Below, one piece after another: positions 745-39,023 of a stretch of DNA of 64,000 nucleotides. Numbering within the stretch: the stretch's first letter is position 1; each line of letters opens with the position of its first letter. A program made the position numbers and the translations under genes. A model generated the notes under the pieces. The model saw only the letters and a list, made by a program, of their open reading frames with translations. It was not told the DNA's origin and searched no databases. This stretch comes from a virus. The stretch covers positions 96,001 to 160,000 of IMG/VR virus record IMGVR_UViG_3300033153_009093; one strand, 5' to 3'.

Positions 745-3700
745 ATGCTTTTTAAAACTAATTTATATAATAGAAATTATTACCCTATAAAGATTTTTTC
801 TATTAATGAAAATATTCTCAATGATGATAAATCTACTATTTCAAATGATTAGATTATAACCAGTTCTACTTTCAATAATGATGAAGGAAAATTAATTAAA
901 CCTTTTCAAACCACATCATAGATAACATCTGTGTCATTAAATGAAAATGTAAATAATTTTAAAGGATATATATATTTAGATTCTACTATATACACAGATT
1001 CTATTGATTATGGTACATTTGGAATATTATCAGGTTAGGAAGCAAATATAAAACATCACTTTGTTACTTTAAAAACTGGTAAGATTTTCAATAATAAAAC
1101 AGGGGGTGTATTTACAAAAGATGACGCTGATAGTTTATCGGAAGAATCTAATATCTCTTTAAAATTTAGTATGAAAGATATATCAGATTAGAATGAGATA
1201 TTAAATCATTTAGAAATGTCAGGATTTAGTGGATATGATATAGAAGATTATGATTTTTTTGGAGATGGAATAAATTCATTAACTATCAACTCTCCGCCTG
1301 ATGACAACTGCACTAATCAATTTGTTAGAGGAAGTGTAATAAATGATTAGGACACATTAACTGAATTTATTGAAAATAATAATGGCACATTGAAATTATA
1401 TAAAGAAAATGACAATATATAGTTTGACATGGAGCTACCCGGAAGATTATTATCTGATATATTTACTTCACTAGATACAAGTTATAAAAACATGATAACT
1501 TCAGAAGATTATGAAAAAAGTTCTAACTCTTCTATTGATTTGCCTATGTTACAATGGTCTATAGGCATGACAGTTATTTTGCAGTTAAAAAATAAAAATA
1601 ATAATACTCCTTATAAAATAAATTTAAAAATTGTTACGCCTTTAATATTCCTTTTATTATTACCTGAAAATGATATAATTGAAGCAAATAAAAGTGATAT
1701 TAAACCATTGCTTAATTTAATTAATAATCCTTCTGATCTTGATAAAAATACATTATTAGTTATACCAACAAAAACAAAATTATTAACTAATCCTTCCAGT
1801 TATTATTCATCTAATATAAAAGTATCACCCTTATCATTAAATACTTTATCGTTTGATACTAATGTAAATAAAGATACTTTTTTTACTATTAATAATGTTC
1901 AATAGAAAGCATCAGATTATTATACTGATAATGACTTAATAACTTTTTCGTCCGAATCGTTTCCGATAAAAAGAATTATACCATCCAGTGCAAATAAATT
2001 GATAAATAATAATTTTGACATATTTATAGATACTACTGGAATAACAGAAAGTTATATCAATACTCTAATTATTAATTATTCTTATGATGGTACAACTTAT
2101 GATATTGAAACTGATATTGAAATAATTCCTACTCTAAATGAAAATGAACCAGAAATAATATATTTACCAAATTCTATACTTGTTGAAAATTCTCATAAAC
2201 ATAAAGTAATACAAAAAGATTTATATAGTAGCAAATTTATTGACTGTATTCATTTTTCAACATTAGGAGAGGATAAACTTAATTTTCAATTAAAAAATAT
2301 AGGCGAAGCGAATGCGATAATTGAAAATGTCGAAATAGAAAATGCCTATAAATAGTTAGACGATTTAGCTAATATAGAAAATAAAACATCTAAGGATTTA
2401 GAAAATATCGAATTACTTACAGAATGTACTAATCATCACATTAGTGCTATGAAATATGTGAATAATTCTTTAACTGATATAGAATTAGAAAATTTAATTG
2501 AAAGATCTTCTATTAAAAAATATATAAATTTTACATTATCAAACATTAATCAATCTTCATATAATGCATATGGGACATCTAATTTTAAAATATTTTTTAA
2601 TATAAATAGATTTAAAACGGATATAAATTATTTAAATGGTATACCTTTAATATTTAAAATAATTTATAGAAAAAAAGATTCACCAATTAAATATACTAAA
2701 TATATATTCAATAAATCTGCTTTTAATTTAAAATTTGTAGTCGGTAAAATGGAATTATTGTATAATAATGAAGTGGAAGATATAAAATATATTAGACCTT
2801 CATCAAGAAATACTTTATTTGTTGATTTATATAGAAATATTAAATTTGACAATATTTAGAATTCTATGAGTAAATTATTATCGACCGGAGTTTCTATAAA
2901 AGATTGTAAAATATTAAATATAAATAATATTAATAATATATCGACTAATGAATATTTTATAGATCGTTCACAATTTCCATTAAGTGTATCTTCATTAAAT
3001 AATATAAATATTAATACGTTATCATTTGATTTAAATTTACAGAATGAAAAATTTTATAAATTTAAATTAAGAATATATACATCTTATGAATATATTCCTT
3101 TCATTGATATCCCTTTAAATGTAATAGCAACAAATGTGGATGTTGAAAGTATAATAAAATTTGATTCTAATGATTTTTATGTAAAAAATAATAAATATTT
3201 TTTATCATTAATAAAATTACAAACAAAAAATAGAAAATTATCTATAGTTAATACTTCTAATATAGATATTATGATATTAGATATAGACATTTACACCATT
3301 TCTGATCATTTTGGAAATGATAATTTTGATATTACATTAAATAATAGTTTTAATTTTCCGTTCAAAATGACTAATAAGAATTCTTTAAAATTAGATATTG
3401 ATTTTATTGGTAAAGATTTTGGACACTATAACAACTTTATAATATTAAAAACAAATTTAGGAGATATATATTTAAGCATTTCTTCTTTCGTAAATACAAA
3501 GTATAAAGATGTATATGTATTAATGGAAAATAGAAAGGGTACAAAATTTACATCAACATTAACTGGCAGTGATGTAGATTATATTAAGTTAATAAACTTC
3601 GGAGATGATAAATGTTTTACTGAAATAACTAAATTAGGAGGATAGAATTTAAATAATTTTAAAATATCCGAAAATGCAAAACTATTACCGAATACTACCA

Positions 3701-4620
3701 ATTATATAGAAAATGTATTTACTCCTACATCAACGGGTAAAAAAATAAGTTAGGCTGATTTTAAATTAAATGATATGCTAGAAACTTATAAATTATTAAT
3801 AGACGAAGAGACTTACATAGCTAAATTACAAAATAGTCATATAATTGCTGAAATGATAGGAACCGCATTAAGTGAAACGGCAGTGCCAGTATTTAGTAAA
3901 AGTATTATAGATTTTGGATATATCTCTACTGATAATAAAAATAGATTAACTAGAGTAGATACCTTTGATATTGAAAATTATGGAATAACTCCTTTTTTAA
4001 TAACAAAGATATCAAATGTAAATTCTAAATCTCCTTTTAAAATATCTTTACTAAATGAAAGTTATCCTATAAAGGTAAATAAGAAAATATCAATTCCAAT
4101 ATATATTGATAATACTTTATTAGATGACAATAATAAAATATATTATGATATATTTAAATTTGAATTGCAAGATTTAAAAACAAAAAATGTTTTTAGTAAT
4201 GATATTATTGTTAAATTAGAACTTACTGAAGATGATAAAAAATATATATCATTAAATTCAGAACTAATAGAATTTGGATATTGTGAAATAAATAATTTTA
4301 AATCTGATTCCGTATCCATTAAAAATTTTTCAACAGATAAGTTATCATTAGATATATCTTATAGTGGCGATATAGAATTACAAACATTGAAAGAATTCGC
4401 TATCAATTTATAGCCTAATCAAACCTTCGATTTGCCTATTTATTTCTATCCTCATGGAATTGATAATTTTGAAGGTATAATACAATTAAAATTTGATGAC
4501 GATTATATTAAAAATATAAACCTTTTTGGGTATGGTGTAGATTTTCAGTTACCTTTGATAAAAATCGAAAATGAATTATTAAAGTATACTAACAATATTC
4601 AACAATATTTAAATAAATAA
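745..4620 (+). CDS. Large (1291 aa) probable virion protein with ASH/Ig-like beta-sandwich domains in the C-terminal half; 12 in-frame TAG
   Basis: Track ORFs 1429, 1999, 2449, 2866, 3775 and 4432 are all in one frame, separated only by TAG (850, 919, 1036, 1189, 1348, 1420, 1903, 2353, 2857, 3643, 3751, 4411). ATG at 745, TAA at 4618. The C-terminus FGYCEINN..SIKN..L*PNQTFDLPIYFYP..G.IQL...L.GYG resembles ASH/choice-of-anchor-D domains. Confidence 0.8.
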
Positions 4621-4664
4621 TATTTTACGGAATCGGTTATTTATCGCCTATTCCGTAAAATATT
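4619..4664. terminator. Bidirectional terminator-like inverted repeat between convergent genes
   Basis: 15-bp arms AATATTTTACGGAAT (4619-4633) / ATTCCGTAAAATATT (4650-4664). Confidence 0.7.
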
Positions 4665-5061
4665 ATAATCCAAATTCCTATAATATTTTATATAAGTTCA
4701 AAGGTTTCTTAACAGGGTAGTATACATTATCAAAATATACCACTAAACTAGAAATGTTATTCAATATTTGCTCAGACACTTCATCATACTTAACATATAC
4801 CATTAATGAATATTCTGTTCCTAATTTAGTATCATTTTCTTGCACAAATAACTTATTATAAGTATATATACATTTCATGCTATCTATATGAATATAGTCG
4901 TCCTGTGATATTGTAGTCATATCAACTGCGCTGTCATCAAAGGGGTTATTGACATTATTATAATTTGGCAAACATAAATCGCACATCGGATTATCAATCA
5001 TATTTGCTATTAAGTCAAACGCTTTTGATTGTATTGCCACTTTTAATTTCGAATATTCCAT
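4663..5061 (-). CDS. Hypothetical protein (1 in-frame TAG near the C-terminus)
   Basis: Track ORF 4678..5061 ends in TAG; read-through adds *EFGL then TAA at 4663-4665, next to the terminator. Confidence 0.65.
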
Positions 5062-7664
5062 TATTCCACCATAACAACATCGTCTAAGGTAACATTAAAT
5101 ATATAATCACTGTTATATGATATATATGAATATTTTAAATTAATATCATATTCATATATATGATTATACTTTCTATAATTTATTAACATTTGGACATAAC
5201 CTTCAGATGATATTTGATAAATTGTTGAGTCGCTTAATAAATCTTTATTTAATATAACAGGATTATTATTATTAGTATTAAATGATAATTCATTTACAGA
5301 TAGATTAATAAATTTATTATCATCAATATTATATAAAGTAATTAAATCATTATAATTATTTATCGAATTTATAAAATAATCAGAAAATGTATAATCATTT
5401 TCATCTGAATATAAACTATAATATGCATACTAATCTATTCCTATTACTTTATTAAATATAATAAATTTATTATCTGTATCCATGATATCATCATATTTAA
5501 AAAATGTTACAAGAAATGTTCCGGTCGTATCTGTTATATTTACTTTGTAAATATCTTCCCCTATTAATACTGACATCACATCTTCATATTCCGCAACATC
5601 TGTATTATCCATATCATAAGATTTAATAATATTAACGTCTGTTAAAATAAAATCTTGTAAATTTTCATAATTAGTTGTATCTATAGTTAAAATATCTTTA
5701 ACATAAGAAAAGGTATAATCGATTACTATAGGATCTTTATATATTTCAGTTAACTGTAATTGTTTTATTTCATTATATAAATGATAAATCAAATCATAAT
5801 TCAATTTATCATTTATATAATATTTATTAGATAATAGATAATAGTAATCAAATGAAATTGTTTGAATATAATCGAAATATAAAAATTTATACTTATAAAA
5901 GCTTTCATCCAATACCGTATTATTTCTAATAAAATGATTATCTAAAATATCTAATGCATCATTTTCATTATCAATCGCTATAATAGATAGCATATTATGA
6001 GGTAATATATTTATATCATCATTTATTAGTATAACATTATCTATTCCATTAGTATGTATATAATAAGATAATGAGTATTCTTCGCTTTTTATAAAGTCGT
6101 TATAGATTACATTTGCAGTATCAAATGTTTTATTAAATTTATACAAGTTATCAAAATCCTAAGATAAATTATATATATAATTATGCAATTTATTATAGTC
6201 CTACTATTCATCCATATAATCATTTACTACAAAATCAATTTCATAATGATCTACATCCAAAGAATATGAGTAATATAATTCATCATTATTTATAGGTATC
6301 AGTCCACCTATAGCAACTTTATATTGTCGTAAATAAAATGTTTCGTAGTTTATATTATCAGACACATATAAAACTATCGGCAAATTTGTAGTAGTGTCAA
6401 ATCCTTGGATATCTATAAATTCCGCTGTCTCTATACTTCCAATATTTGAATCTACAAAATCACCATGAATATCCTAAAATTCTATTTGCTTTGTTAAATA
6501 ATTTCTATACTTTTTAATACTATTATAGCTACTTATAAATTCATCATAATCTTCATCTAATATAACTGTAGAATCATTATTGTAAGCTGTTTTTATATAG
6601 TTATATAAATAATTATTATATGATTTAAATTCTATATTGACTATCTCTTCTTGTTTATATAACTTTAATTGATTTGATGTTATCGAATTACTTGGTACCT
6701 AATCTGATAAAGTGCTTTCCTCAATATCATTAAATGTAAATTTTAAATCCTATCTAACAAATGGATGCGGATAATTATCCACATATTCACTATGTCCATT
6801 TTCTGTTACTTTTATACTATAAGGATATTTATCTGCGCTAGTTACAATATATGAATATTGCTCAAAACTAAATATTGCCGATGGAATGTAACTTTTAACA
6901 TCATTTAAAATATCATATAATGTATTTTTTAATTTATAATTATCTTGGCTTCCGTAAATATATACATACTTTTCATATCCATTAAAATTTATTTTAAAAG
7001 TAAATCCATTATAGATAACTTTATATGGTAAATAATTTGAATATATATATAATTCTTTGTATGATAACGAATTTTGCAATTGTTCAAATTCCGATTCATT
7101 TAATCCTTCAGTTTTTATTAATACTAAATCAGGATATTCTATATTTGATTTAGGATAATATACTGTTGTAGGTGTCTCTATTTTCTTTTCAACTATATTA
7201 AATAAATAATCATCAATGGGATCTATTTCTATTCTATTATACGAAATAGATTTTATCGATGATAAGTAACCGGAGTCCTTTTCATTCTTTATAATATTAT
7301 CTACAAATATACCCTTAGTATCAATATCATTTGAATAGGTCTAAATAAATTTTATATTATTAGGATACTTTATAGATGTTATTATAAATATTTCACAAGC
7401 ATTGAATTTTGATAATATCATCTAATGAATAAGCTATAATTTTTCTACATTAGATAAATTGGCATCAATTTTTACATCATCAATTTTATCATATAGCCCA
7501 TATACATATTTTATTATTGTTGAGCTTTTATTTTCTGAATACTTATGATATAGATATGTTGAAAAAATATAATCCATTTTTTCATTAACGGCATATTGTT
7601 GCATACCTATCGTATCGCTGAATATGTATTCTATATTTAGATTATTAGAATTAAATCCTAACAT
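5061..7664 (-). CDS. Large (867 aa) probable virion/baseplate-region protein; 10 in-frame TAG including a TAG-TAG pair
   Basis: Track ORFs 7434..7664, 6750..7079 and 5430..6146 share one frame with only TAG between them. The final TAA overlaps the next ATG (TAATG at 5061-5063). Confidence 0.8.
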
Positions 7665-8281
7665 TATATAGACCTCTATAAAAATTTACTTAATTCTAAA
7701 TTATTTATATCATTAGATATAAATAATTTTATATCACTATCGACTATTTTATTCTTTATTACATTATCTTTAAAAATATAAGCTATTTTATTATTAGATA
7801 AATTGTAAATTGTAGGAAATATATATACCAATTCGTTATCAACTGATAATAATATTATAGAAGAAAAGTTATTTATATCATTATCAGAATCTATGGTAAG
7901 AATTAACATATTATTAATATAACTAATATTCTTTAATTCAATAATTTGAGTATATGTATTATATAATATAGATGAATAATTTATCCAGTACCTATAAATA
8001 TCACTGTATTCATCATTACCATCATTGTATGATACAGTTAAATCAATATAATCCTTATTTATAGAATTGCCTATATTAATAATTTTAATATACCCTTTCA
8101 AGTTATAAGAAGTGTCCTTTACAATTGTAAAAGGTGTGTTTATATATTCTATATTTAGATTATCCGTTGACGTAATATCGTCAATTTGGAGGTCTGCGGT
8201 TCCTTGATTAATAATATCAAATCCGAAATTTTTTAATGTATATAATTCTTTTATACCAAGTTCAACACTGTATTCATTCAT
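7664..8281 (-). CDS. Probable virion protein with an ASH/Ig-like domain
   Basis: FDIINQGTADLQIDDI motif typical of ASH-like domains. TAG at 7676 is followed by RSI and a TAA overlapping the next ATG. Confidence 0.6.
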
Positions 8282-8292
8282 ATCAATTCCTA

Positions 8293-8802
8293 TTAAATAT
8301 TTGTAACATTAGAAAAATTCGTTAATAGATTATCTTGATCTTTTGTATCATTTAAATATTCAAAAAAATTATCTAATTCAATATATCTATTAACTGAAAC
8401 CAAATAATTTAAATCTAATGATAGCATATTAGGAATGATATAGTTTGTATCATCAAATTTTTTTATCTACACTGCTATTAATGTTTTAGTGGATGAAGGT
8501 TCATTCTATTTATAAGCACTATCGGTATTGATAGTAATATTATTAATAGGTTTATAATTTAAATTGTACTCTTCTATATTTAATGATTCTGATAAATTAG
8601 TAACTATTTGATTAAATATATATACATTATTATTTTCAATAAAATTTGAAATATTTATTTCATTAATAATTAAATCATTCTATAAAGTATTAATATATGC
8701 CAAATCTTTTTCTTCGGTATATCTAATGATATATAAATCAAATAACATAAACATCTAAGTAGATAAGCATAATTTAAAATTATCATTCGTGTACTATTTC
8801 AT
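8293..8802 (-). CDS. Hypothetical protein (169 aa) missed by the ORF track; 5 in-frame TAG
   Basis: Manual translation MK*YTNDNFKLCLST*MFML...TL*NDL...YK*NEP...AV*IKKF..., closing on TAA 8293-8295. Confidence 0.7.
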
Positions 8803-8806
8803 AATA

Positions 8807-10069
8807 TTACCCATTCACTAACATTACAGGGATTGTTAAAGTTTCACCTGATTTAGCTATATCAAAAATTAAATCATTAAAATAATTAGCATTGCTACTT
8901 AAAAATGAAAGATTATATAAATTATCTATATTTTTTAATGTACTCTATGGAATATTCTTCCTATCTTGTAATATTCTTCCTATTGAATTTGTTTCAATTG
9001 CTATCGGCATAGAATTTTTAAATCCATCAGAATATTCTTTATATTTCTTTATCTAATAATATCTGGATGAATATTTCGTTTCAATTAGATTTTTAGGTTT
9101 AGCTCCATTATATAAATGAAACAATCCATCATGTTCTAATTGTATTTTATTAAAAATAATATCAAAAAACTTTTTAGTAAATTCAAAAGGTATATATCTA
9201 TAAATGCCATTATTTTTATTTAAAAAAATTCCAACAGTAAATAGTGACTGAACAATAAAATAATTATCATTCAAATTTTCAATATCTGATTTAATAGTTG
9301 TCTAATTAGAATTGTATATAGAATTTAAACTGATATCTATAATACCGCTACTTGTTATTGATGTTAAATATTTATTATTATAATATAATTTAATATTATC
9401 TACGTCATCAGTGGTAGTATAAATAAAAAAATGAACAGGATAATAAACACCATTTAAATAAAATAAATAAAAATTGCTATGGTAAACTTTATGAATATTT
9501 GATTTTATTATTATGGTAGGATTGAAAATTGTTCTGATGTTATCTTCATCATCGATATAATATTTTCCAACTAATTCTTTTATCGAATGAATATTCCCTG
9601 ATAATGTTATTAGTTTTTCTACATTTTCTATTTCATAAAAAGGATAATATTCATTAGAATGAATATTATCATTTTTTAATGTATTATATCGTTTATAATA
9701 ATTATCATTATTAATAATAGAATACTATTCATCTAAAGTTAAATTATCATTATATAATGATAATTTTATTGCTTCATTTGCAGCATCTATTGCAATATTA
9801 TCTGTTTGAGTAGCGGATTTTATAAATCGATCTTTATAAAAATTTTCCTAAGATTCTGATAAATCTCCTGTATAAGAAAATAAATCTATAGGATTTTTAT
9901 TATACATTACATTATACAATGGCATATCGGATTCAAGATATATTAAATTACCAGAATTGATATTTTGTAAATTGAATTTATAGCTCTATAATGTTGGATG
10001 ATTTGATACGGCTTTTATATTATAATTTGATAATATATGCTGCACTTTATCGTAAGAAGAATATAACAA
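8807..10069 (-). CDS. Hypothetical (probable virion) protein, about 420 aa; 6 in-frame TAG
   Basis: Open frame from TTG 10069 to TAA 8807 interrupted only by TAG; contains track ORF 9053..9274; start codon uncertain. Confidence 0.7.
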
Positions 10070-11622: not shown

Positions 11623-12666
11623 TTAATTATATAATTTTGATATACTATAATCAATAAACGTTGTTGAATCGTTAATATTAATTACATCATTAATAATTCT
11701 ACTTTTACTATATAATTCTAATGCTATATTTTTCAATTCTCTATTATATTTGTTCTTTAAATATATTATTAATTTATATAATCCTATAGAAAAACTAATA
11801 AAATCAAATTTTTTAATTGAGATTAAAAAATAACTATTTATAAAATTATAATCCGTCAATTTCATAGAATTTATTTCTTCAACAAAGAATGTATCAAATA
11901 TTTTGCCATTTATCATTTGATAATTAGTAAAATATTTAATTATTAAATTTTTTATAATATTATCAAATAGTAATATCGTAATATATTTCGCTTCTTCCAA
12001 TTTATTTAATTTTATTAATATATATGCCGCTATTAATATATTACTATAACTAAAATAATTAAAAGGGTATATTATTTGAATATCATTTAAATATTCTTTA
12101 AATTTTTTACTTTTATAATAAGAATAACTATTTAACATTATAGAAAATAATATTTCCGAATTATAATATATTTTTAAATCTTTTTTTAATTCAATAGTAA
12201 TATTTTTTAAATCTGTATCTATTTTTGTTATAAGGCTGTTTACATTTGAATCTTTTTTTAATTCACAACCTAACACCCTTTCATTTGTTTTTGTATATTT
12301 TATTTTTTTTGGGGTTTTATATTTCGATATCAAAATTTCATAAGGATAATAATATTTATTAAAATCAGGAATAATTGAATTTTCATCTTTTATCATTTCT
12401 GGGGCTGGTTTCCCTACAATAAACTTATTCTTATTATAAAAAATATTACAATTTTGCAAACTAACCTTTAATTTACTATCCCTTTTTAATAAAGTATCAA
12501 CATATATAAATTTATTTTTTCTTTTTAATAAATAAGAATTTATTTTTAAACTATCAAAGATTTTTTCTTTTATAATATTATAATCAATTTCTGATTCATC
12601 TAATAATTCTTTTAATAATAATGTTGTTACATAATTTATAACATAATCTTTATTTATTTTTTCCAT
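11623..12666 (-). CDS. Hypothetical protein
   Basis: Track ORF; start moved to ATG 12666 (MEKINK) because the upstream part overlaps the tRNA gene. Confidence 0.65.
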   Translation of the reverse strand: MEKINKDYVINYVTTLLLKELLDESEIDYNIIKEKIFDSLKINSYLLKRKNKFIYVDTLLKRDSKLKVSLQNCNIFYNKNKFIVGKPAPEMIKDENSIIPDFNKYYYPYEILISKYKTPKKIKYTKTNERVLGCELKKDSNVNSLITKIDTDLKNITIELKKDLKIYYNSEILFSIMLNSYSYYKSKKFKEYLNDIQIIYPFNYFSYSNILIAAYILIKLNKLEEAKYITILLFDNIIKNLIIKYFTNYQMINGKIFDTFFVEEINSMKLTDYNFINSYFLISIKKFDFISFSIGLYKLIIYLKNKYNRELKNIALELYSKSRIINDVININDSTTFIDYSISKLYN

Positions 12667-12713
12667 ATAAATTCTTATTATTATATTGTAAATAATTGAT
12701 ATTAATAAAGAAA

Positions 12714-12787
12714 TGGACTCGGTTAAGAGAATCGAACTCCTATACACAGATTTAGAGTCTGTTATCTTGCCATTAGATCAAACCGAG
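12714..12787 (-). tRNA. tRNA with anticodon CUA (reads UAG); inferred tRNA-Trp(CUA)
   Basis: CTCGGTT TG ATCT AATGGCA AGAT A ACAGA CT-CTA-AA TCTGT GTAT AGGAG TTCGATT CTCTT AACCGAG T CCA. All four stems pair, with a GG D-loop, TTCGA T-loop and encoded CCA. The amino-acid identity is inferred. Confidence 0.95.
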
Positions 12788-12839
12788 TTTTATCTAACAT
12801 ATTTAATTAATCTATATCATTTTTTATTTTAATATACAA

Positions 12840-13379
12840 TTATGCATATTGCCAAGTTAATTTTAATTTTTTGTCACTAGGATGTTTCCCGGCAGATTCT
12901 CTTTTTCCTCTACAACATTCGGAAATGTGTTGATGTCTTGTATTTGCATGATTACCAGCTTTTCTTAATGAAAGAAACATAGAATTTAATTCAGGACAAT
13001 AGACTTTTTTTCTAGGTTTATTATGTAATCCATTTTCAAAAGCATGATCGCTATTTTCTTGATTAGTCATCCATTCCAAATCTTTCCAATAGTTATTTAA
13101 CTTATTACCATACTTATGATTTACTTGTGGTTTATTTTTAAAATTATCAACGAAATGAATAGCAACTAATCTATGAATAACATACGACTTCCCTTTTCCA
13201 TTATTACTAAACCATACATTAGCATATTTATTTCTAAAAGATGTTTTTAAAATAACACCTTCGGGGTATCTATGAAAACTTTTAACATTTCCCCATGATG
13301 ATATTTGATACAACCCTTCGTATCCTTTTACATCCTTCCACGTTTCAGACTCTCTATTTTTTATTTTTGTATCTGGCAT
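12840..13379 (-). CDS. NUMOD4-HNH homing endonuclease
   Basis: ETWKDVKGYEGLYQISSWGNVKS (NUMOD4), HRLVAIHF, VNHKYGNKLNN (HNH-like, with the usual HKDG Asp changed to Tyr). Confidence 0.85.
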   Translation of the reverse strand: MPDTKIKNRESETWKDVKGYEGLYQISSWGNVKSFHRYPEGVILKTSFRNKYANVWFSNNGKGKSYVIHRLVAIHFVDNFKNKPQVNHKYGNKLNNYWKDLEWMTNQENSDHAFENGLHNKPRKKVYCPELNSMFLSLRKAGNHANTRHQHISECCRGKRESAGKHPSDKKLKLTWQYA

Positions 13380-13411: not shown

Positions 13412-14929
13412 TTAAAATAGCGAAACATTTTGTGATACTTGATTATTAGATTTTGTTTTCTTTTCAAATTGACCTAACATTCCGCCCCCTTCTTCGGCAC
13501 TACACTTTTCAAATCTTGCAAAATTAGGACGATATCTACAATTTATTATAGTACCATCTTCATGATATCTATGTTTTTCATTATATAATACGACCATATT
13601 ATATCCTAAATCTTTATAAGTATCTTTTACCTGCATTGTAATAACGATATCGGCATTTTCATATTTTGACCAACCGCCTCCAATGTCCGTACCACTTGGC
13701 ATTTCGTCATCGCTTTTACTTTTTCTTGCGCCTTCTCTATTAAACTGCGATACAGTTAACCCGCAAGTGTCATATTTTTTTGAAACAGCTTTGAAATCAT
13801 CTACAATATTCCCTACAACTTCATCACTTCTCAATGTTTTTCTATTATCAATAGGTAACATTTTATCTACATAGTCAAGCATAATAGAATATACAATAGA
13901 ATCTTTAAACTTTAATAGAGTTCTATCAATGCATGCTTCTATAGCTAACATATTATGACGTTTAGGTGGCAATTCAACTACGACTAATATAGTATTTTTA
14001 TCCTTTTGTTTTAAATATAATTTTATGATTTCTTTTCTTTTCTGATCATCCAATATATCATACTTTAATTTATTAATATCTATATCAGTTATATTTGAGA
14101 TAATCCGTAAAAAAGTTTCTGTTTTAGAATTTTCAAAAGTAAAATAGAAAACAATATTTTTTTTATTACCAGTTTTTTTAGACCGTAAGTGTTCTGCCGT
14201 TGAATGGCACAGAAACATTGATTTCCCGGCCCCGGAAGCCCCGATTAATATACCTATTCGTTTCTTCTCTATAAATCGAATTTCGCTTAATATTGAAACT
14301 TCTCGACACTCTTCTTGAACTACAGCCGATTCTTGTAAAGCTTCATCAATATCATCGATATCATTTTCTAAAACAAAATCGTCATTTATTAAAGAATCAT
14401 CATATGTCAAAAATATTTTTGATAATCTTTGTTCGTATTCTATTGTTGGGTCTTCTATTGTATAAAATTTATTATATAAATCATATAAATCAATAATAGA
14501 TTTATGAAGAGATAAAAATTTAATAACTTTATCAAATTCTATATTTATTGAACTATTATTAAATCTATTTGAATCTTTATTATTAACAATGTAATTTATA
14601 AATTTTTGTACTTTATTAAATGTATTATTATCTATTGTGTTTTCTATTTTATTTATAATACTTTGTTTTATAGAAACAATATCAGCATTTATACTTATTG
14701 TTTTTGATTCTATAATTAAAGATAATATTTTTATGAAGGCAGGATTATCCGTTTCATATACTAATGATAGTGATTTATAGGACTGTTGTTTTGTAGTAAA
14801 AAAATAATTTAAGAAACTATTTATATTTAATAATGATGCGTCTTTAAAATTAGTAATGTCATATCTTAATAAACCTATACATAATAAAGATATATACTCA
14901 GGTGTTAAATATTTTTTATCTATAATCAT
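13412..14929 (-). CDS. Replicative DNA helicase (DnaB/T4 gp41-like)
   Basis: GASGAGKS Walker A, LDYVD Walker B, SQFNREG motif. Confidence 0.8.
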   Translation of the reverse strand: MIIDKKYLTPEYISLLCIGLLRYDITNFKDASLLNINSFLNYFFTTKQQSYKSLSLVYETDNPAFIKILSLIIESKTISINADIVSIKQSIINKIENTIDNNTFNKVQKFINYIVNNKDSNRFNNSSINIEFDKVIKFLSLHKSIIDLYDLYNKFYTIEDPTIEYEQRLSKIFLTYDDSLINDDFVLENDIDDIDEALQESAVVQEECREVSILSEIRFIEKKRIGILIGASGAGKSMFLCHSTAEHLRSKKTGNKKNIVFYFTFENSKTETFLRIISNITDIDINKLKYDILDDQKRKEIIKLYLKQKDKNTILVVVELPPKRHNMLAIEACIDRTLLKFKDSIVYSIMLDYVDKMLPIDNRKTLRSDEVVGNIVDDFKAVSKKYDTCGLTVSQFNREGARKSKSDDEMPSGTDIGGGWSKYENADIVITMQVKDTYKDLGYNMVVLYNEKHRYHEDGTIINCRYRPNFARFEKCSAEEGGGMLGQFEKKTKSNNQVSQNVSLF

Positions 14930-27961: not shown

Positions 27962-27992
27962 ACCGGAGAAGATTTTCTTCTCCGGTTTTTTT
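27962..27992 (+). terminator. Rho-independent terminator ending the tnpB-like transcript
   Basis: 11-bp stem ACCGGAGAAGA/TCTTCTCCGGT, TTT loop, followed by a T run. Confidence 0.85.
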
Positions 27993-28443
27993 ATAGATAC
28001 TTTTCAATTTTTTTATTAGTACTTTCATGTAAAATCATATCACTTTTATTTTTATTAAAATATGATTTTGGTGTGCCTTCAAATTTTCTCGACATTCCCC
28101 TCTAATCGGCAATCATTTGAAGTATGTATTTTTTTGGCATTTCAATAGGAATTATTTCATTTTTCCTTGTTACAGATACCTAGTAATTCTAATGATGTTT
28201 ATTTCTTTTTTGATGTTTATTCTACCCTTGTTGAAATAATTTATCGTTTCCATCAGATTTACAATAATTATTTAAGCTATCTTTCTTTTCAAAAAAGATA
28301 GCAGATGGTATAAATTCGGATGGTAAAAATTTTGATAAGTCATGAGTAATTGCATGATAATATAGTCCCATGTTGATACATTCTATTCCTACATTCTTTT
28401 TATGCTCAATAATATATTTAAAATATTTCTAATATTTATTCAT
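27991..28443 (-). CDS. DUF5662-like HD-related phage protein (150 aa) missed by the ORF track; 5 in-frame TAG, all at conserved Trp positions
   Basis: MNKY*KYF..HK..HDLSKF.PSEF..QG*NKHQKRNKHH*NY*V..EMP.KY..QMIAD*RG. TAG at 28429, 28222, 28189, 28180 and 28102. Confidence 0.85.
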
Positions 28444-33651: not shown

Positions 33652-34626
33652 TCATTTTTCTACCTTTTCAAATAAAAAGCATTTGACATTATCGTAATCA
33701 TTTTTATAAATACCATAATATTGTACAATGTTATTAACTTTTTCAGTATATAAATCTTGTATAATATAATCTCTTATTTGTTTTATAGATTTAGGTATAG
33801 CAGAAGGCTTTCTTTTCTTAAAATCTATATCATTTTTTATTCGATATTCTATATCTTTTAATGAGATGTCATCGATATGATATAAATAATTTCCTATTTT
33901 CACTGTTTCGTAAACTTTACTTTTTATTTTATGACCTAAAGCTGATACAACTTTATATTTACAACATCTTAATTTAGCATTATCGTAATCATAAGGAACG
34001 GATACTACATCAGCAGGATTTATTTTAACTTGTATTAAAATTCCTTCATCTGATCCATAAAAATTTTTAGCATATGAATATGACGCTGCATGAAGTCCAA
34101 CAGAACAAGTAACTTTTCTATCCGAACAAACTTCAGCTCTGTCCATTTCGACAATTGAACCGACCGAATTATTAAAAGTGTTTGTTGCAAAATCTTTAAA
34201 ATTAGAAGTAACTTTTTTATAAGCTATAAAATGTCCATCGACTGTTAAGGGATATTTATTATGTTCTAAAAATAAATATAATTCGGAAATAGAATCTTCT
34301 GATTTATTATTTATTAAATTATTCCAAAAATTTAATAAATTATCAAAGGGTAATCCGTTATTATGAAAATCTACAATTTTATTAGAAATATAATCGCTTA
34401 CTTTCCGACCATATGAATATACTGAACCATTTAATATACAAAATTTATCATTACTTTCGGCTTCAATAAAATCCTTTACATCTACAAGCTTTCTAATCTT
34501 TTTAAAATCGCCATCTTTTATTAATTTTAAAATCTTATCATATAATGCAGTTTTTTTATTTACATCAAAAACTTCGTCTTCGTATGATATTACAATGCCA
34601 TTTTTTAATATATGGTAATTAAACAT
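33652..34626 (-). CDS. rIIB: rIIB-like protein
   Basis: ELYLFLEHN..PLT.DGHFIAYKKV, C..GLH, VKINPADVVSVPYDY..AKLRCCKY; adjacent to rIIA; start moved to ATG 34626. Confidence 0.85.
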   Translation of the reverse strand: MFNYHILKNGIVISYEDEVFDVNKKTALYDKILKLIKDGDFKKIRKLVDVKDFIEAESNDKFCILNGSVYSYGRKVSDYISNKIVDFHNNGLPFDNLLNFWNNLINNKSEDSISELYLFLEHNKYPLTVDGHFIAYKKVTSNFKDFATNTFNNSVGSIVEMDRAEVCSDRKVTCSVGLHAASYSYAKNFYGSDEGILIQVKINPADVVSVPYDYDNAKLRCCKYKVVSALGHKIKSKVYETVKIGNYLYHIDDISLKDIEYRIKNDIDFKKRKPSAIPKSIKQIRDYIIQDLYTEKVNNIVQYYGIYKNDYDNVKCFLFEKVEK

Positions 34627-36850: not shown

Positions 36851-38086
36851 TTATGTCAATGTTTCAAGAATATAATTTTTAAAATTATCAACAATTTGTT
36901 TTTTAACTGTAATATTCCATTCATTACAACAGCACGGAGCATAATCTTTATATCTCATATCATAGTCTTCAGATTCATGTAACGATTTTTGAAAATCGCA
37001 AATATCGTCCGCCTTCTTTACATGAATAAAACAAGGAGAAGTTGGACAATCGGATTTTATGTTTAAAGATTTTGTATATTTATAATATTTAGTTCTGCAT
37101 TCATATGGAAATGGGCCGTATAACCCAATAGCAGGCTTTTCAATACCTTCACGAAAATGAAATAGTGCAGTATCAACACTAATACAAAGAGTAGCATCAT
37201 ATGCATCAAGAAAAAATTCATCAAGATTTTTAGCTGCTATAATTTTAATTCTGTCATCTTTTAAATTATTAATATAATTTATATCTTCGATTCTTAAATT
37301 CAATTCATGGATATATATATTTACATCCTTATTATTAATACATTCAATTACGGATTCATAAATATCCTGAAATCTCATAGACCTAATTATAGCAGTAGAT
37401 CTAGGATTAATTAAAATACTAGGTTTATCAGAATCTATATTAGATTTATTATTATTTATTCTTGCTGTTTTTAATTGAGGTCTTCCCCATTCAAAGTCAA
37501 ACTCATCAATCCCGATAGTTTTATATTGTAATTCATACCAATTATCTTTACTATTTTCAATAACACCTTCATAATAAATAGTCTTATACCTACTATTTAC
37601 TCGTTTTTTTTCTAAAGAGTTATTACTTTTATATCTTACAATTGGCGAAAAATAAGATATAAATGTCACTGGTTCTCGATACCATTTAAACACGCTTCTA
37701 TATTTTTCTTGAGAAATGAATTTTAAATTTTTAGATTTCTTATTTAAAAATTGTACTATATTCATTGAAATAGAAGATAAAGCGATTAAATCGCCTATGC
37801 CTCCGGTTCTTAATATAATAGGAAATACCATTTTATTTTCTTTTGTAAAATCTAATTTATCTATAACATCGTCAATATTTTTTTCATATTTAACAATTTT
37901 ATTATAAATATTTTTTACTTGAGATGCTATCATATGTCTATCAGAAGTTCTAATAACTTCTATTAACCTTTCTTTAAATGTTAACCATATAGTATCAGCG
38001 AATAAATACATATGTTTAGGTTGTATTTTTATATCATTATCATTAATATTGATAGAAATACTTTTTTTAAATTCAACAATTTTCAT
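36851..38086 (-). CDS. Glycosyltransferase family 9-like (heptosyltransferase-like)
   Basis: RTGGIGDLI, ISVDTALFH, IGLYGP, C-terminal Cys cluster (CPTSPC). Confidence 0.7.
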   Translation of the reverse strand: MKIVEFKKSISININDNDIKIQPKHMYLFADTIWLTFKERLIEVIRTSDRHMIASQVKNIYNKIVKYEKNIDDVIDKLDFTKENKMVFPIILRTGGIGDLIALSSISMNIVQFLNKKSKNLKFISQEKYRSVFKWYREPVTFISYFSPIVRYKSNNSLEKKRVNSRYKTIYYEGVIENSKDNWYELQYKTIGIDEFDFEWGRPQLKTARINNNKSNIDSDKPSILINPRSTAIIRSMRFQDIYESVIECINNKDVNIYIHELNLRIEDINYINNLKDDRIKIIAAKNLDEFFLDAYDATLCISVDTALFHFREGIEKPAIGLYGPFPYECRTKYYKYTKSLNIKSDCPTSPCFIHVKKADDICDFQKSLHESEDYDMRYKDYAPCCCNEWNITVKKQIVDNFKNYILETLT

Positions 38087-39023
38087 TAATATTACACCTT
38101 ATATTATTTATTTTTTTTAATAGATAATTATAATTATCTATTATATTTTTTTCATTAACAATATTTAATGATATATTATCATCAAAATTATTAATATATA
38201 ACTTCATTATTTTTAATAGTTCTGTTATATTAAATTGCTTACAATTATAACAAGCATCTTCTATACAGTTTATATCATCAAAATTTATATTGAAGTATTT
38301 TATAAAATACTTCAATAAATTATTATACAAATGACATTCAGTACCAGTTTTATATTTAATGATATACTTTTTCATATTATCTATATCATCAAAATTAATA
38401 AAATTATTTAATGATTTTGACATTTTTTCTTTTTCATTGCTTCCATAAATAACATTATTAGAAATATTAATTTTTATATTTTTTATATTTAATTTTTTAT
38501 AAATATCTTTCATAATGTTAATATTTGATTTTTGATCATTTGCTAAAAAAACAGTTGTTATTTCATTATCATTATGATATAATAATACATCAAAAGTTTG
38601 TAAAACTGGATATAATAAAAATCCCAAAGATTTATTCTTACTATTTTTAAATGTAGGATTTTTTAATAATTTTGATGTATTTATTAACGGAAGATATTTA
38701 TATGTTAAAGAAGTATGATAATTATTAATGTTTTTATTATTTTGAAATATAAATAATAATTTATTAATATTATTATCAATGTTTTTATTATTATATATTA
38801 AATATGTTTTATATAATGAATAAATCTTTTTTGCTAGTAAAATAGAATTATTATTTATTTTATTAGCTGAAATATTAGATAATTCTGAATGAGTTTCAGC
38901 TAGTAAAATAAATATTTTATTAACATTTTTAAACATTATATTATCAAACATATTTAAAATTGTCATAACATGTCCAATATGTAAATTATTTCCCGTTGAT
39001 CTAATTCCAAAATATATATTCAT
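38073..39023 (-). CDS. trpS: Divergent tryptophanyl-tRNA synthetase-like protein (class Ic)
   Basis: GIRSTGNNLHIGH, YPVLQTFDVLLY, ANDQKSN, KMSKS, C-terminal C..CK; contains no TAG and no TGG. Confidence 0.8.
   Translation of the reverse strand: MNIYFGIRSTGNNLHIGHVMTILNMFDNIMFKNVNKIFILLAETHSELSNISANKINNNSILLAKKIYSLYKTYLIYNNKNIDNNINKLLFIFQNNKNINNYHTSLTYKYLPLINTSKLLKNPTFKNSKNKSLGFLLYPVLQTFDVLLYHNDNEITTVFLANDQKSNINIMKDIYKKLNIKNIKINISNNVIYGSNEKEKMSKSLNNFINFDDIDNMKKYIIKYKTGTECHLYNNLLKYFIKYFNINFDDINCIEDACYNCKQFNITELLKIMKLYINNFDDNISLNIVNEKNIIDNYNYLLKKINNIRCNINENC

What the first reader, a model, noticed from the sequence alone, without database searches (positions are those of the whole stretch)
12714..12787. 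CUA-anticodon tRNA with identity elements unlike bacterial tRNA-Trp or tRNA-Gln
Seen: a complete cloverleaf with anticodon loop CU-CUA-AA, C1:G72, discriminator U73, A10:U25 and a 4-nt variable loop. The anticodon loop differs from tRNA-Trp (CU-CCA-AA) by one base, and the T arm resembles E. coli tRNA-Trp (from memory). Established: bacterial Trp and Gln tRNAs typically carry G73 and a weak or different 1:72 pair. Inference: the acceptor end has drifted to avoid host GlnRS/TrpRS and to match the phage TrpRS. The ORF track hides this gene inside a false N-terminal extension of 11623..12747.
Basis: partly seen in the sequence, partly recalled or inferred. Interest (0 to 1): 0.88.

Follow-up and report, generated by a model that had tools for sequence, protein, structure and literature searches.

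The report
Phage tRNA that reads TAG as tryptophan
This 180-kb phage carries a single tRNA, which reads the stop codon TAG, and the phage's late genes show that TAG means tryptophan. That code is not described for phages in the papers I could search, and the tRNA's unusual acceptor end looks matched to the phage's own tryptophan-loading enzyme.

Summary
The tRNA is real. It lies at window 12714-12787 on the minus strand: 74 nt, anticodon CUA, C1:G72, U73, A10:U25, 4-nt variable loop, encoded CCA (Rfam 59.4 bits). It is the only tRNA in this complete 180-kb, 22% GC phage.

TAG is a sense codon in about 90 genes and means tryptophan, not glutamine or tyrosine.
- All five TAGs of a DUF5662 gene fall on that family's five Trp-dominant columns.
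- Terminase TAGs sit on the invariant Trp columns and swap with TGG in relatives.
- TGG falls from 0.85% to 0.17% of codons where TAG (1.11%) is used.

The synthetase at 38073-39023 is a Thermotoga-type, four-cysteine TrpRS with no Trp codon of its own.

Six related jumbo phages carry a homologous TrpRS and a tRNA(CUA) at the same locus. Three of the seven tRNAs, this one included, are short; four have a long, tRNA-Tyr-like variable arm. All seven keep C1:G72, with U73 in six and C73 in one.

Charging was not tested, and descent from tRNA-Trp is unproven.

This scan has noted TAG-to-Trp phages on other DNA. The papers held report UAG-to-Trp only for Balanophora plastids.

The parts
12714..12787 (-). 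tRNA(CUA). 74 nt, class I shape, C1:G72, U73, A10:U25, loop CUCUAAA, 4-nt variable loop, CCA encoded. It is the only tRNA in the 180-kb genome.
   Evidence: ARAGORN; Rfam RF00005 59.4 bits; no other tRNA in the rest of the genome; covariation.
12810..12819 (-). Promoter-like TGATATAGAT (extended -10 type) preceded by an A run, 22 nt upstream of the tRNA 5' end. Similar motifs precede the tRNA(CUA) of four relatives and this phage's TrpRS gene and tmRNA gene. Function is inferred only.
   Evidence: Flank comparison; genome-wide motif list. The generic promoter scan was no better than shuffles.
11623..12666 (-). Conserved 347-aa ORF of unknown function directly downstream of the tRNA. The ORF-track version 11623-12747 has a false N-terminal extension that runs into the tRNA.
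   Evidence: Translation; orthologues follow the tRNA in L013-L016 with invariant M1. No Pfam, NCBIfam or PHROG hit, no fold match and no reliable Atlas lead.
12840..13379 (-). NUMOD4/HNH homing-endonuclease gene just upstream of the tRNA.
   Evidence: Pfam PF07463 and PF13392. A NUMOD4 gene sits at the same place in relative L013.
13412..14929 (-). DnaB-like helicase. It is the synteny anchor used to find the tRNA locus in relatives. It is TAG-free.
   Evidence: Pfam PF03796; homologues and loci; tree.
38073..39023 (-). Phage TrpRS, 316 aa. It has HIGH and KMSKS motifs and four invariant Cys (C230, C253, C258, C261) that align to the [4Fe-4S] ligands of T. maritima TrpRS. The gene has no TGG and no TAG codon.
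   Evidence: PF00579; family alignment A1; profile against PDB, 2g36 E = 3.5e-24; AF2 pLDDT 86 with all 40 listed Foldseek hits TrpRS; codon counts.
27991..28443 (-). DUF5662 gene with 5 in-frame TAGs. This is the in-window test case that fixes the meaning of TAG as Trp.
   Evidence: The 5 TAGs fall on the only 5 Trp-dominant columns of 120 homologues (91/118, 117/120, 120/120, 120/120, 119/120). Tyr and Gln columns carry ordinary Tyr and Gln codons.
745..10069 (.). Block of TAG-rich late or structural genes inside the window: 745-4620 (+) with 12 TAG; 5061-7664 (-) with 10; 8293-8814 (-) with 5; 8807-10069 (-) with 6. These are clients of the tRNA.
   Evidence: ORF lists with TAG read through; codon counts.

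Best explanation
The gene encodes the phage's dedicated UAG-decoding tRNA, and it inserts tryptophan. Early genes, including the tRNA region, the replication genes and the TrpRS gene, contain no TAG, so the host's standard machinery can express them. The TrpRS gene needs no Trp codon at all. Once the tRNA(CUA) and the phage's Thermotoga-type Fe-S TrpRS are made, the enzyme charges the tRNA with Trp. The roughly 300 in-frame TAGs in late and structural genes are then read as Trp in place of TGG. The tRNA's C1:G72 pair and U73 discriminator, together with the CUA anticodon, are proposed to be the marks read by the phage TrpRS. The same marks lack what bacterial TrpRS (G73, C35) and GlnRS (weak 1:72 pair, G73, G10) need, so the pair would be insulated from the host. 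Shown here: the tRNA is real and is the sole tRNA; TAG means Trp; the enzyme belongs to the TrpRS family; tRNA and enzyme co-occur in all seven related phages; the acceptor signature is conserved. Inferred: who charges the tRNA, which nucleotides are identity elements, the timing of expression, and how host RF1 is outcompeted.
For: Existence.
- ARAGORN and Rfam find the tRNA.
- It is the only tRNA in the genome.
- The cloverleaf covaries.

TAG is a sense codon.
- Coding rises from 51 to 62 kb in the window with the ORF count almost unchanged (74 vs 77).
- ORFs of 1291 and 867 aa appear when TAG is read through.
- The 300 TAGs are spread evenly along the genes.

TAG means Trp.
- DUF5662: 5 of 5 TAGs fall on the only 5 Trp-dominant columns, although the query was translated with Q at TAG.
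- TerL: TAGs sit on the three most conserved Trp columns and on none of the Tyr columns.
- TAG here corresponds to TGG in relatives' TerL at up to 5 positions, including columns where distant homologues have L, E or F.
- TGG is 0.85% of codons in TAG-free genes and 0.17% in TAG-bearing genes, where TAG is 1.11%. Tyr and Gln codons do not change.
- The same shift is seen in three related genomes.

The enzyme is a TrpRS.
- The family profile hits T. maritima TrpRS 2g36 at E = 3.5e-24 over its full length, with all four cluster cysteines aligned.
- All 40 listed Foldseek hits (ranks 1-50) are TrpRS.
- The gene has no TGG and no TAG.

Co-occurrence.
- tRNA(CUA) and TrpRS are both found in 7 of 7 clade phages examined.
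- For the phage in MAG G002, the TrpRS lies on a second contig of the same bin.
- None of the four genomes read in full encodes a tRNA-Trp(CCA), although two carry 21-22 tRNAs.

Acceptor signature.
- C1:G72 is present in 7 of 7; position 73 is U in 6 and C in 1.
- This holds across short and long body plans.
- The combination is absent from the 44 other phage tRNAs.
Against: - No aminoacylation, expression or proteomic data exist. No public sequencing run could be listed.
- The tRNA and the TrpRS are 25 kb apart, not in one operon.
- The host is unknown, so the host enzymes' identity rules are assumed from E. coli and B. subtilis, not tested.
- This phage has no release-factor gene, unlike four relatives that carry RF2 beside the tRNA. 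How RF1 competition is handled is open.
- Four relatives charge, presumably with the same enzyme family, a tRNA with a long Tyr-like arm. The recognition rules are therefore not simple, and the acceptor-signature reading rests on seven sequences.
- In ortholog pairs within the clade, TAG also often aligns with Tyr codons: 76 Tyr against 68 TGG. I attribute this to one-step TAG-to-TAT/TAC mutation at Trp sites, but it is a loose end.
Confidence: 0.75

Rival explanations
1. The tRNA(CUA) inserts Trp but is charged by the host's TrpRS. The phage TrpRS has another job, for example raising total Trp-tRNA supply or charging host tRNA-Trp(CCA) during infection.
For: Borges et al. proposed that recoded phages mostly rely on host synthetases. 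The body of this tRNA (D loop, short variable loop, T arm 14/17) resembles E. coli trpT. tRNA and TrpRS are not adjacent. An earlier scan note on a different TAG-to-Trp phage proposed host charging.
Against: U73 and U35 replace the two strongest known bacterial TrpRS determinants, G73 and C35 (established for E. coli and B. subtilis; not tested for this host). The TrpRS is kept in all seven phages with a tRNA(CUA), including complete genomes that encode only one or three tRNAs. The C1:G72 plus Y73 signature is conserved and is unlike trpT.
Confidence: 0.15
2. It is an ordinary code-15 amber suppressor. Host GlnRS charges it with glutamine, as in crAss-like and Lak phages and as E. coli su+7 mostly is.
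For: TAG-to-Gln is the only published TAG reassignment in phages. Some database relatives of the terminase show Q at the TAG columns, which probably comes from pipelines applying code 15.
Against: No TAG falls on a Gln-conserved column, and Gln columns carry CAA or CAG. TAG sits on invariant Trp columns. TGG, not CAA/CAG, is depleted where TAG is used. The tRNA lacks the E. coli GlnRS elements: it has a strong C1:G72 pair, U73 and A10.
Confidence: 0.02
3. TAG means tyrosine. The class Ic enzyme is a TyrRS-like protein, and the tRNA is a supF-like tRNA-Tyr(CUA), as the long-arm relatives suggest.
For: The relatives' long-arm tRNA(CUA) genes BLAST to phage tRNA-Tyr. NCBIfam gave a marginally better weak hit to tyrS than to trpS. 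C1:G72 is the archaeal and eukaryotic tRNA-Tyr pair (general knowledge). TAG often aligns with Tyr codons within the clade.
Against: Tyr-dominant columns in TerL and DUF5662 carry TAT or TAC, never TAG, while Trp columns carry TAG. Tyr codon frequency is the same in both gene sets while TGG collapses. The profile and fold searches put the enzyme firmly in TrpRS, with the Thermotoga Fe-S motif. At 316 aa the enzyme is about 100 residues shorter than bacterial TyrRS, whose C-terminal domain binds the long arm (length; the TyrRS comparison is general knowledge, not tested here).
Confidence: 0.03

Closest known systems
'Code-change module' of TGA-recoded Jade phages (suppressor tRNA-UCA, TrpRS and RF1; Borges et al., bioRxiv 10.1101/2021.08.26.457843)
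   Same: A phage-encoded suppressor tRNA and a phage TrpRS are written in standard code and predicted to switch on late genes that use a stop codon for Trp. Relatives of this phage also add a release factor.
   Different: The codon is TAG, not TGA, so the tRNA is CUA rather than UCA, and the matching factor in relatives is RF2 rather than RF1. Here the tRNA and TrpRS are 25 kb apart and this genome has no RF gene. That paper states that only TAG-to-Gln and TGA-to-Trp were seen in phages.
AP1 and HF2 phage TrpRS:tRNA(UCA) pairs (PMC12636597)
   Same: These are natural phage TrpRS and suppressor-tRNA pairs that insert Trp at a stop codon. AP1 is orthogonal in E. coli.
   Different: Those tRNAs read UGA and have G73 (AP1) or A73 (HF2). 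This one reads UAG and has U73 with C1:G72. The UAG suppressors characterised in that paper inserted Gln, Tyr or Ala, not Trp.
E. coli su+7 (supU), tRNA-Trp with anticodon CUA
   Same: It has the same anticodon loop, one base away from tRNA-Trp, and a similar T arm.
   Different: su+7 keeps A1:U72 and G73 and is largely mischarged with Gln by GlnRS (established knowledge, not tested here). The phage tRNA has C1:G72, U73 and A10 and serves a Trp code.
Balanophora plastid code (NCBI table 32, TAG = Trp) with a nuclear tRNA-Trp(CUA) (bioRxiv 10.64898/2026.01.09.698701)
   Same: The codon meaning is the same, the genome is also extremely AT-rich, and a CUA-anticodon Trp tRNA is used. It is the only UAG-to-Trp case in the papers held.
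   Different: That case is a eukaryotic organelle with RF1 loss, an imported duplicate of the normal tRNA-Trp, and no dedicated synthetase. Here the code is used in only part of a virus's genes inside a standard-code host, with its own TrpRS.
Thermotoga maritima TrpRS with a [4Fe-4S] cluster (PDB 2g36)
   Same: It is the best sequence and fold match of the phage enzyme. The four Cys ligands in the anticodon-binding domain are conserved in all 15 family members.
   Different: Identity is about 19%. The spacing here is C-x22-C-x4-C-x2-C, against x6 in 2g36 and most family members. Its presumed substrate has a CUA anticodon and U73.

Membership tests
tRNA (Rfam RF00005) | Cloverleaf with conserved core nucleotides, scoring above the family gathering threshold | tested here: met
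   59.4 bits against 29; ARAGORN. U8, A14, G18G19, U33, T-loop UUCGAUU and encoded CCA are read directly. Covariation supports the fold.
Canonical bacterial tRNA-Trp | Anticodon CCA, discriminator G73, A1:U72-type first pair (the E. coli/B. subtilis identity set) | tested here: not met
   Anticodon CUA, U73 and C1:G72, against trpT with CCA, G73 and A1:U72. It works as a Trp tRNA by inference but is not a canonical member.
Canonical bacterial tRNA-Trp | Overall sequence relatedness to tRNA-Trp genes (isotype model) | tested here: inconclusive
   58% identity to E. coli trpT and T arm 14/17. BLAST of this tRNA against phage records hit only other CUA tRNAs plus one annotated tRNA-Arg and unannotated stretches. 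The short tRNA(CUA) of relative G002 gave mixed isotypes: Asn, Arg, Lys, Met, Trp. No isotype-specific models were available.
Code-15 (TAG to Gln) phage amber suppressor tRNA | In-frame TAG aligns with Gln in homologues | tested here: not met
   TAG aligns with Trp. Gln columns carry CAA or CAG. There is no CAA/CAG depletion.
Phage stop-codon recoding with a code-change module (Borges et al.) | Recoded stop concentrated in late or structural genes, while the module genes are in standard code | tested here: met
   TAG-rich blocks include the terminase gene and very long ORFs (presumed structural; mostly unannotated). The replication genes, the TrpRS gene and the tRNA's neighbours are TAG-free.
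Phage stop-codon recoding with a code-change module (Borges et al.) | Suppressor tRNA, cognate aaRS and matching release factor encoded together | tested here: inconclusive
   tRNA and TrpRS are present but 25 kb apart. This genome has no RF gene. RF2 lies beside the tRNA in four relatives.
TrpRS (class Ic, Thermotoga Fe-S subtype), for the partner enzyme | HIGH and KMSKS motifs, TrpRS fold, and C-x22-C-x(4-6)-C-x2-C in the anticodon-binding domain | tested here: met
   LHIGH, KMSKS and four invariant Cys; 2g36 at E = 3.5e-24 with the Cys aligned; all 40 listed Foldseek hits are TrpRS. Cluster binding and amino-acid specificity are not testable here.
Orthogonal aaRS/tRNA pair | tRNA not charged by host synthetases; enzyme does not charge host tRNAs | not testable with these tools
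   Only indirect evidence: the acceptor signature is unlike trpT and tRNA-Gln and is conserved across the clade.

The most novel reading that the evidence does not exclude
A clade of AT-rich jumbo phages runs a TAG = Trp code, which would be the first such code in a virus or in a bacterial-type translation system. It does so with a self-contained, naturally host-insulated pair: an Fe-S TrpRS and a tRNA(CUA). Recognition would rest on C1:G72, a pyrimidine at position 73 and the CUA anticodon. It would be so independent of the tRNA body that the same locus holds either a minimal 74-77-nt tRNA or a long-arm, tRNA-Tyr-like one. This phage would carry the leanest kit: one tRNA, one synthetase, no release factor.
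Probability: 0.55. Interest if true: 0.88.

Novelty: new variant of a known kind. Interest (0 to 1): 0.82.

Why it matters
Phage stop-codon recoding is known, but published surveys report only TAG-to-Gln and TGA-to-Trp. They explain these by host GlnRS and TrpRS being easy to hijack. A TAG-to-Trp code cannot arise that way, because a CUA-anticodon tRNA-Trp is normally captured by GlnRS. It therefore needs the kind of dedicated, insulated synthetase/tRNA pair seen here.

- It gives a concrete and testable identity set: C1:G72, U73 and CUA.
- It offers a natural candidate for an orthogonal tryptophan amber-suppressor pair, which genetic-code-expansion work has had to engineer.
- It carries a practical warning. 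Annotation pipelines that assume code 15 put Gln at every one of these Trp positions, and some database relatives already show this.

Tried and rejected
- **Exact-pattern and protein-pattern scans of IMG/VR** with the single TrpRS and a 26-nt tRNA word found nothing.
- **A looser tRNA pattern** gave 25 viral loci. Only one was a clade member; one other held an unrelated tRNA(CUA) and the rest held none.
- **The single metagenome scan** gave one unrelated C1:G72/U73 CUA tRNA on a 3-kb contig.
Relatives of a virus record cannot be drawn.
- **The closest relative's contig (L059)** ends before the tRNA site.
- **Isotype by BLAST**: this tRNA hit only other CUA tRNAs in phage records. The short tRNA of relative G002 gave mixed isotypes and no E. 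coli match. I make no isotype call from these.
- **The 347-aa neighbour** has no Pfam, NCBIfam or PHROG family. Its AF2 model has pLDDT 74, Foldseek gives nothing below E = 0.7, and the Atlas best score is 0.76. Function is left open.
- **The generic sigma-70 scan** around the tRNA was no better than shuffles, and no terminator was found. The TGATATA motif is too common in this AT-rich genome to count as evidence on its own.
- **Sequencing runs**: none was listed and no RNA holder is listed.
- **The earlier scan idea of a variable arm that mimics a spare Trp anticodon hairpin**: the long arms of this clade have loops UUAAUU or UUAAC with no CCA, and this phage's tRNA has no arm at all. That mechanism does not apply here.
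- **Naive pairwise codon tallies within the clade** could not separate Trp from Tyr. They were replaced by alignments to standard-code homologues.

Full report
**1. The observation**

- ARAGORN finds one tRNA in the 64-kb window, at 12714-12787 on the minus strand, with anticodon CUA.
- Rfam's tRNA model scores 59.4 bits against a gathering score of 29.
- Read 5' to 3' on the minus strand, the gene has:
  - a 7-bp acceptor stem starting C1:G72, U2:A71, C3:G70;
  - U8;
  - a 4-bp D stem with A10:U25;
  - a 7-nt D loop containing GG;
  - a 5-bp anticodon stem and loop CUCUAAA;
  - a 4-nt variable loop;
  - T arm AGGAG/UUCGAUU/CUCUU;
  - discriminator U73 and an encoded CCA.
- E. coli trpT, fetched and aligned, has loop CUCCAAA, A1:U72 and G73. 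Its T arm is identical at 14 of 17 positions.
- The ORF-track gene 11623-12747 begins at a GTG inside the tRNA. The true start is the ATG at 12666, conserved as M1 in four orthologues.
- One correction: the synthetase is not next door. It lies at 38073-39023, 25 kb away.

**2. Context**

- The window is bases 96001-160000 of a complete 180,374-bp IMG/VR virus record with inverted terminal repeats and about 22% GC.
- The whole genome has exactly one tRNA, this one, plus a bona fide tmRNA.
- Reading TAG as sense raises ORF coverage of the window from 51 to 62 kb with almost the same ORF count (74 vs 77). It fuses fragments into ORFs of 1291 and 867 aa.
- Genome-wide, about 300 in-frame TAGs lie in about 90 genes. 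Most are in the 47-106 kb late block (very long, mostly unannotated ORFs), and the terminase gene at 23-25 kb carries nine more. They are spread evenly along the genes.
- The replication genes around the tRNA and the synthetase gene are TAG-free.

**3. What TAG means**

Three independent tests give tryptophan.

- **DUF5662 gene (window 27991-28443).**
  - It has five TAGs. I translated them as Q, so as not to favour Trp, and it still recovered 200 homologues.
  - In an alignment of 120 of them, the five TAGs occupy exactly the five Trp-dominant columns (91/118, 117/120, 120/120, 120/120, 119/120).
  - Tyr-dominant columns carry TAT or TAC in all but two cases, and there the query has Ser or Phe, never TAG. 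All Gln-dominant columns carry CAA or CAG.
- **Large terminase (genome 22947-24758).**
  - It has nine TAGs and no TGG.
  - Against 150 representatives, TAG sits on the three most conserved Trp columns and on no Tyr column.
  - In relatives' terminases, TAG here corresponds to TGG there at up to five positions. Some of these are columns where distant homologues have Leu, Glu or Phe.
- **Codon usage.**
  - TGG is 0.85% of codons in TAG-free genes but 0.17% in TAG-containing genes, where TAG is 1.11%.
  - Tyr and Gln codons are unchanged.
  - The same shift is seen in three related genomes of 276, 197 and 233 kb.

Gln (code 15) and Tyr are therefore excluded at the level sequence analysis allows.

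**4. The partner enzyme**

- The 316-aa protein at 38073-39023 belongs to PF00579.
- Single-sequence searches were ambiguous between TyrRS and TrpRS.
- A profile of 15 family members matches T. maritima TrpRS (2g36) over its full length at E = 3.5e-24. Four invariant cysteines align to that enzyme's [4Fe-4S] ligands.
- The AlphaFold model has pLDDT 86, and all 40 listed PDB neighbours (ranks 1-50) are TrpRS.
- The gene contains neither TGG nor TAG, so it can be made before, and independently of, the code switch.

**5. Relatives**

- Homologues of the TrpRS (39-68% identity) and of the DnaB-like helicase beside the tRNA (43-84% identity) lie on contigs of 39 to 276 kb with conserved gene order.
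- Including this phage, I found both a TrpRS and a tRNA(CUA) at the syntenic site downstream of DnaB in seven phages.
  - In this phage and four of the relatives the tRNA is followed directly by the 347-aa ORF's orthologue. In G002 that homologue lies about 5 kb away, and none was found in G003.
  - For the phage in MAG G002, the TrpRS is on a second contig of the bin.
- All use in-frame TAG.
- Four have RF2 beside the tRNA. This phage has no release-factor gene.
- None of the four genomes read in full encodes tRNA-Trp(CCA), although two carry 21-22 tRNAs.

**6. Two body plans, one acceptor signature**

- Four relatives have a 91-92-nt tRNA(CUA) with a 4-bp long variable arm. Its D and anticodon arms BLAST to phage tRNA-Tyr.
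- Three phages have a short class I tRNA of 74-77 nt: this one, G002 and G003.
- On a DnaB tree, this phage is nested with strong support (99/97) among long-arm phages.
- Yet its tRNA is only 36/74 identical to that of its nearest fully sampled relative. The tRNA gene at this locus was therefore probably replaced rather than trimmed. A homing-endonuclease gene sits beside it.
- Across all seven tRNAs, pair 1:72 is C:G, and position 73 is U in six and C in one.
- Every other stem position covaries freely.
- Among the 44 other tRNAs of the relatives, none combines C1:G72 with U73.
- The long arms' loops (UUAAUU, UUAAC) do not mimic a Trp anticodon.

**7. Mechanism**

- The best reading is a two-part kit. 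The host-readable early region yields the tRNA(CUA) and the Fe-S TrpRS. The enzyme loads Trp on the tRNA, and late genes written with TAG for Trp then become translatable.
- By established E. coli and B. subtilis rules, bacterial TrpRS depends on G73 and the CCA anticodon. GlnRS depends on a weak 1:72 pair, G73, G10 and U35.
- This tRNA offers U35 but has a strong C1:G72, U73 and A10. That is consistent with escape from both host enzymes.
- Charging, identity elements, timing and the fate of RF1 are inferences. Nothing here tests them.

**8. Comparison with what is known, and novelty**

- The closest system is the Jade-phage module (tRNA-UCA, TrpRS, RF1) for TGA-to-Trp. That study states that only TAG-to-Gln and TGA-to-Trp were seen in phages.
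- A 2025 screen of more than 200 phage suppressor tRNAs characterised TrpRS:tRNA(UCA), GlnRS:tRNA(CUA) and TyrRS:tRNA(CUA) pairs and a UAG-to-Ala tRNA. It reported no UAG-to-Trp.
- A 2026 jumbo-phage survey simply treats TAG recoding as code 15.
- In the papers held, UAG-to-Trp appears only for Balanophora plastids, where it is called exceptionally rare.
- Earlier notes of this scan report TAG-to-Trp phages on other DNA, one with a TrpRS and RF2. This report agrees with them. What it adds is the clade-wide tRNA comparison.
- I class the finding as a new variant of a known kind.

Noticed in passing
L007:11981-12339 (genome 171981-172339, outside the window): The phage encodes a full-length tmRNA (Rfam RF00023, 100.7 bits; tag ADDYAIAMAA). 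ARAGORN also predicts one in the related 197-kb contig. A ribosome-rescue RNA in phages that reassign a stop codon may be connected to the recoding.
   Followed up: partly
L013:12139-12229, L014:15507-15597, L015:14464-14555, L016:11604-11694: Four related phages have, at the same locus, a 91-92-nt tRNA(CUA) with a long variable arm whose body BLASTs to phage tRNA-Tyr. Yet TAG means Trp in the one relative read in full (G001). A Trp-code tRNA in a class II shape is odd in itself.
   Followed up: partly
L014:14000-15097, L015:12741-13838; also G002:C208 12278-13087 and G003 92630-93613: Release factor 2 genes (prfB, 357-385 bits) lie within about 2 kb of the tRNA(CUA) in four relatives. This phage and the fetched tRNA loci of its two closest relatives lack RF2.
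   Followed up: partly
window 11623-12666 (-): A conserved 347-aa protein follows the tRNA(CUA) directly in this phage and four relatives (more distantly placed in G002, not found in G003). It has no family or fold match and might belong to the recoding kit.
   Followed up: partly
P0021, P0024, P0025, P0026 (terminase homologues): Database proteins of related phages show Q at columns where this phage has TAG and the family has Trp. Public pipelines have probably translated these genomes with code 15.
   Followed up: no
L063-L072 (G002:C208, 197,384 bp) and L061: A near-complete jumbo-phage contig and a second phage contig carrying the TrpRS are binned inside a 'Candidatus Neomarinimicrobiota' MAG in GTDB. 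This is either bin contamination or a host hint.
   Followed up: no
window 38073-39023 (-): The four-Cys motif is C-x22-C-x4-C-x2-C here, against x6 in T. maritima TrpRS and most family members. This subclade also lacks a roughly 9-residue loop just before the first Cys.
   Followed up: no
L060:2142-2223: A 3-kb soil or metagenome contig carries another CUA tRNA (82 nt) with C1:G72, U73 and encoded CCA. Part of this was imposed by the search pattern, and its relationship is unknown.
   Followed up: no
window 4663-5061 (-), 7664-8281 (-); genome 168279-168719 (-): In three genes the only TAG lies 4-5 codons before the TAA/TGA that ends the read-through ORF. TAG could still act as a stop there, or these may be ordinary Trp codons.
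   Followed up: no
window 34619-36763 (-): A 714-aa protein gives weak HSP90-family and sacsin-type ATP-binding-domain hits. It lies in the conserved block next to the TrpRS and rIIB-like genes.
   Followed up: no
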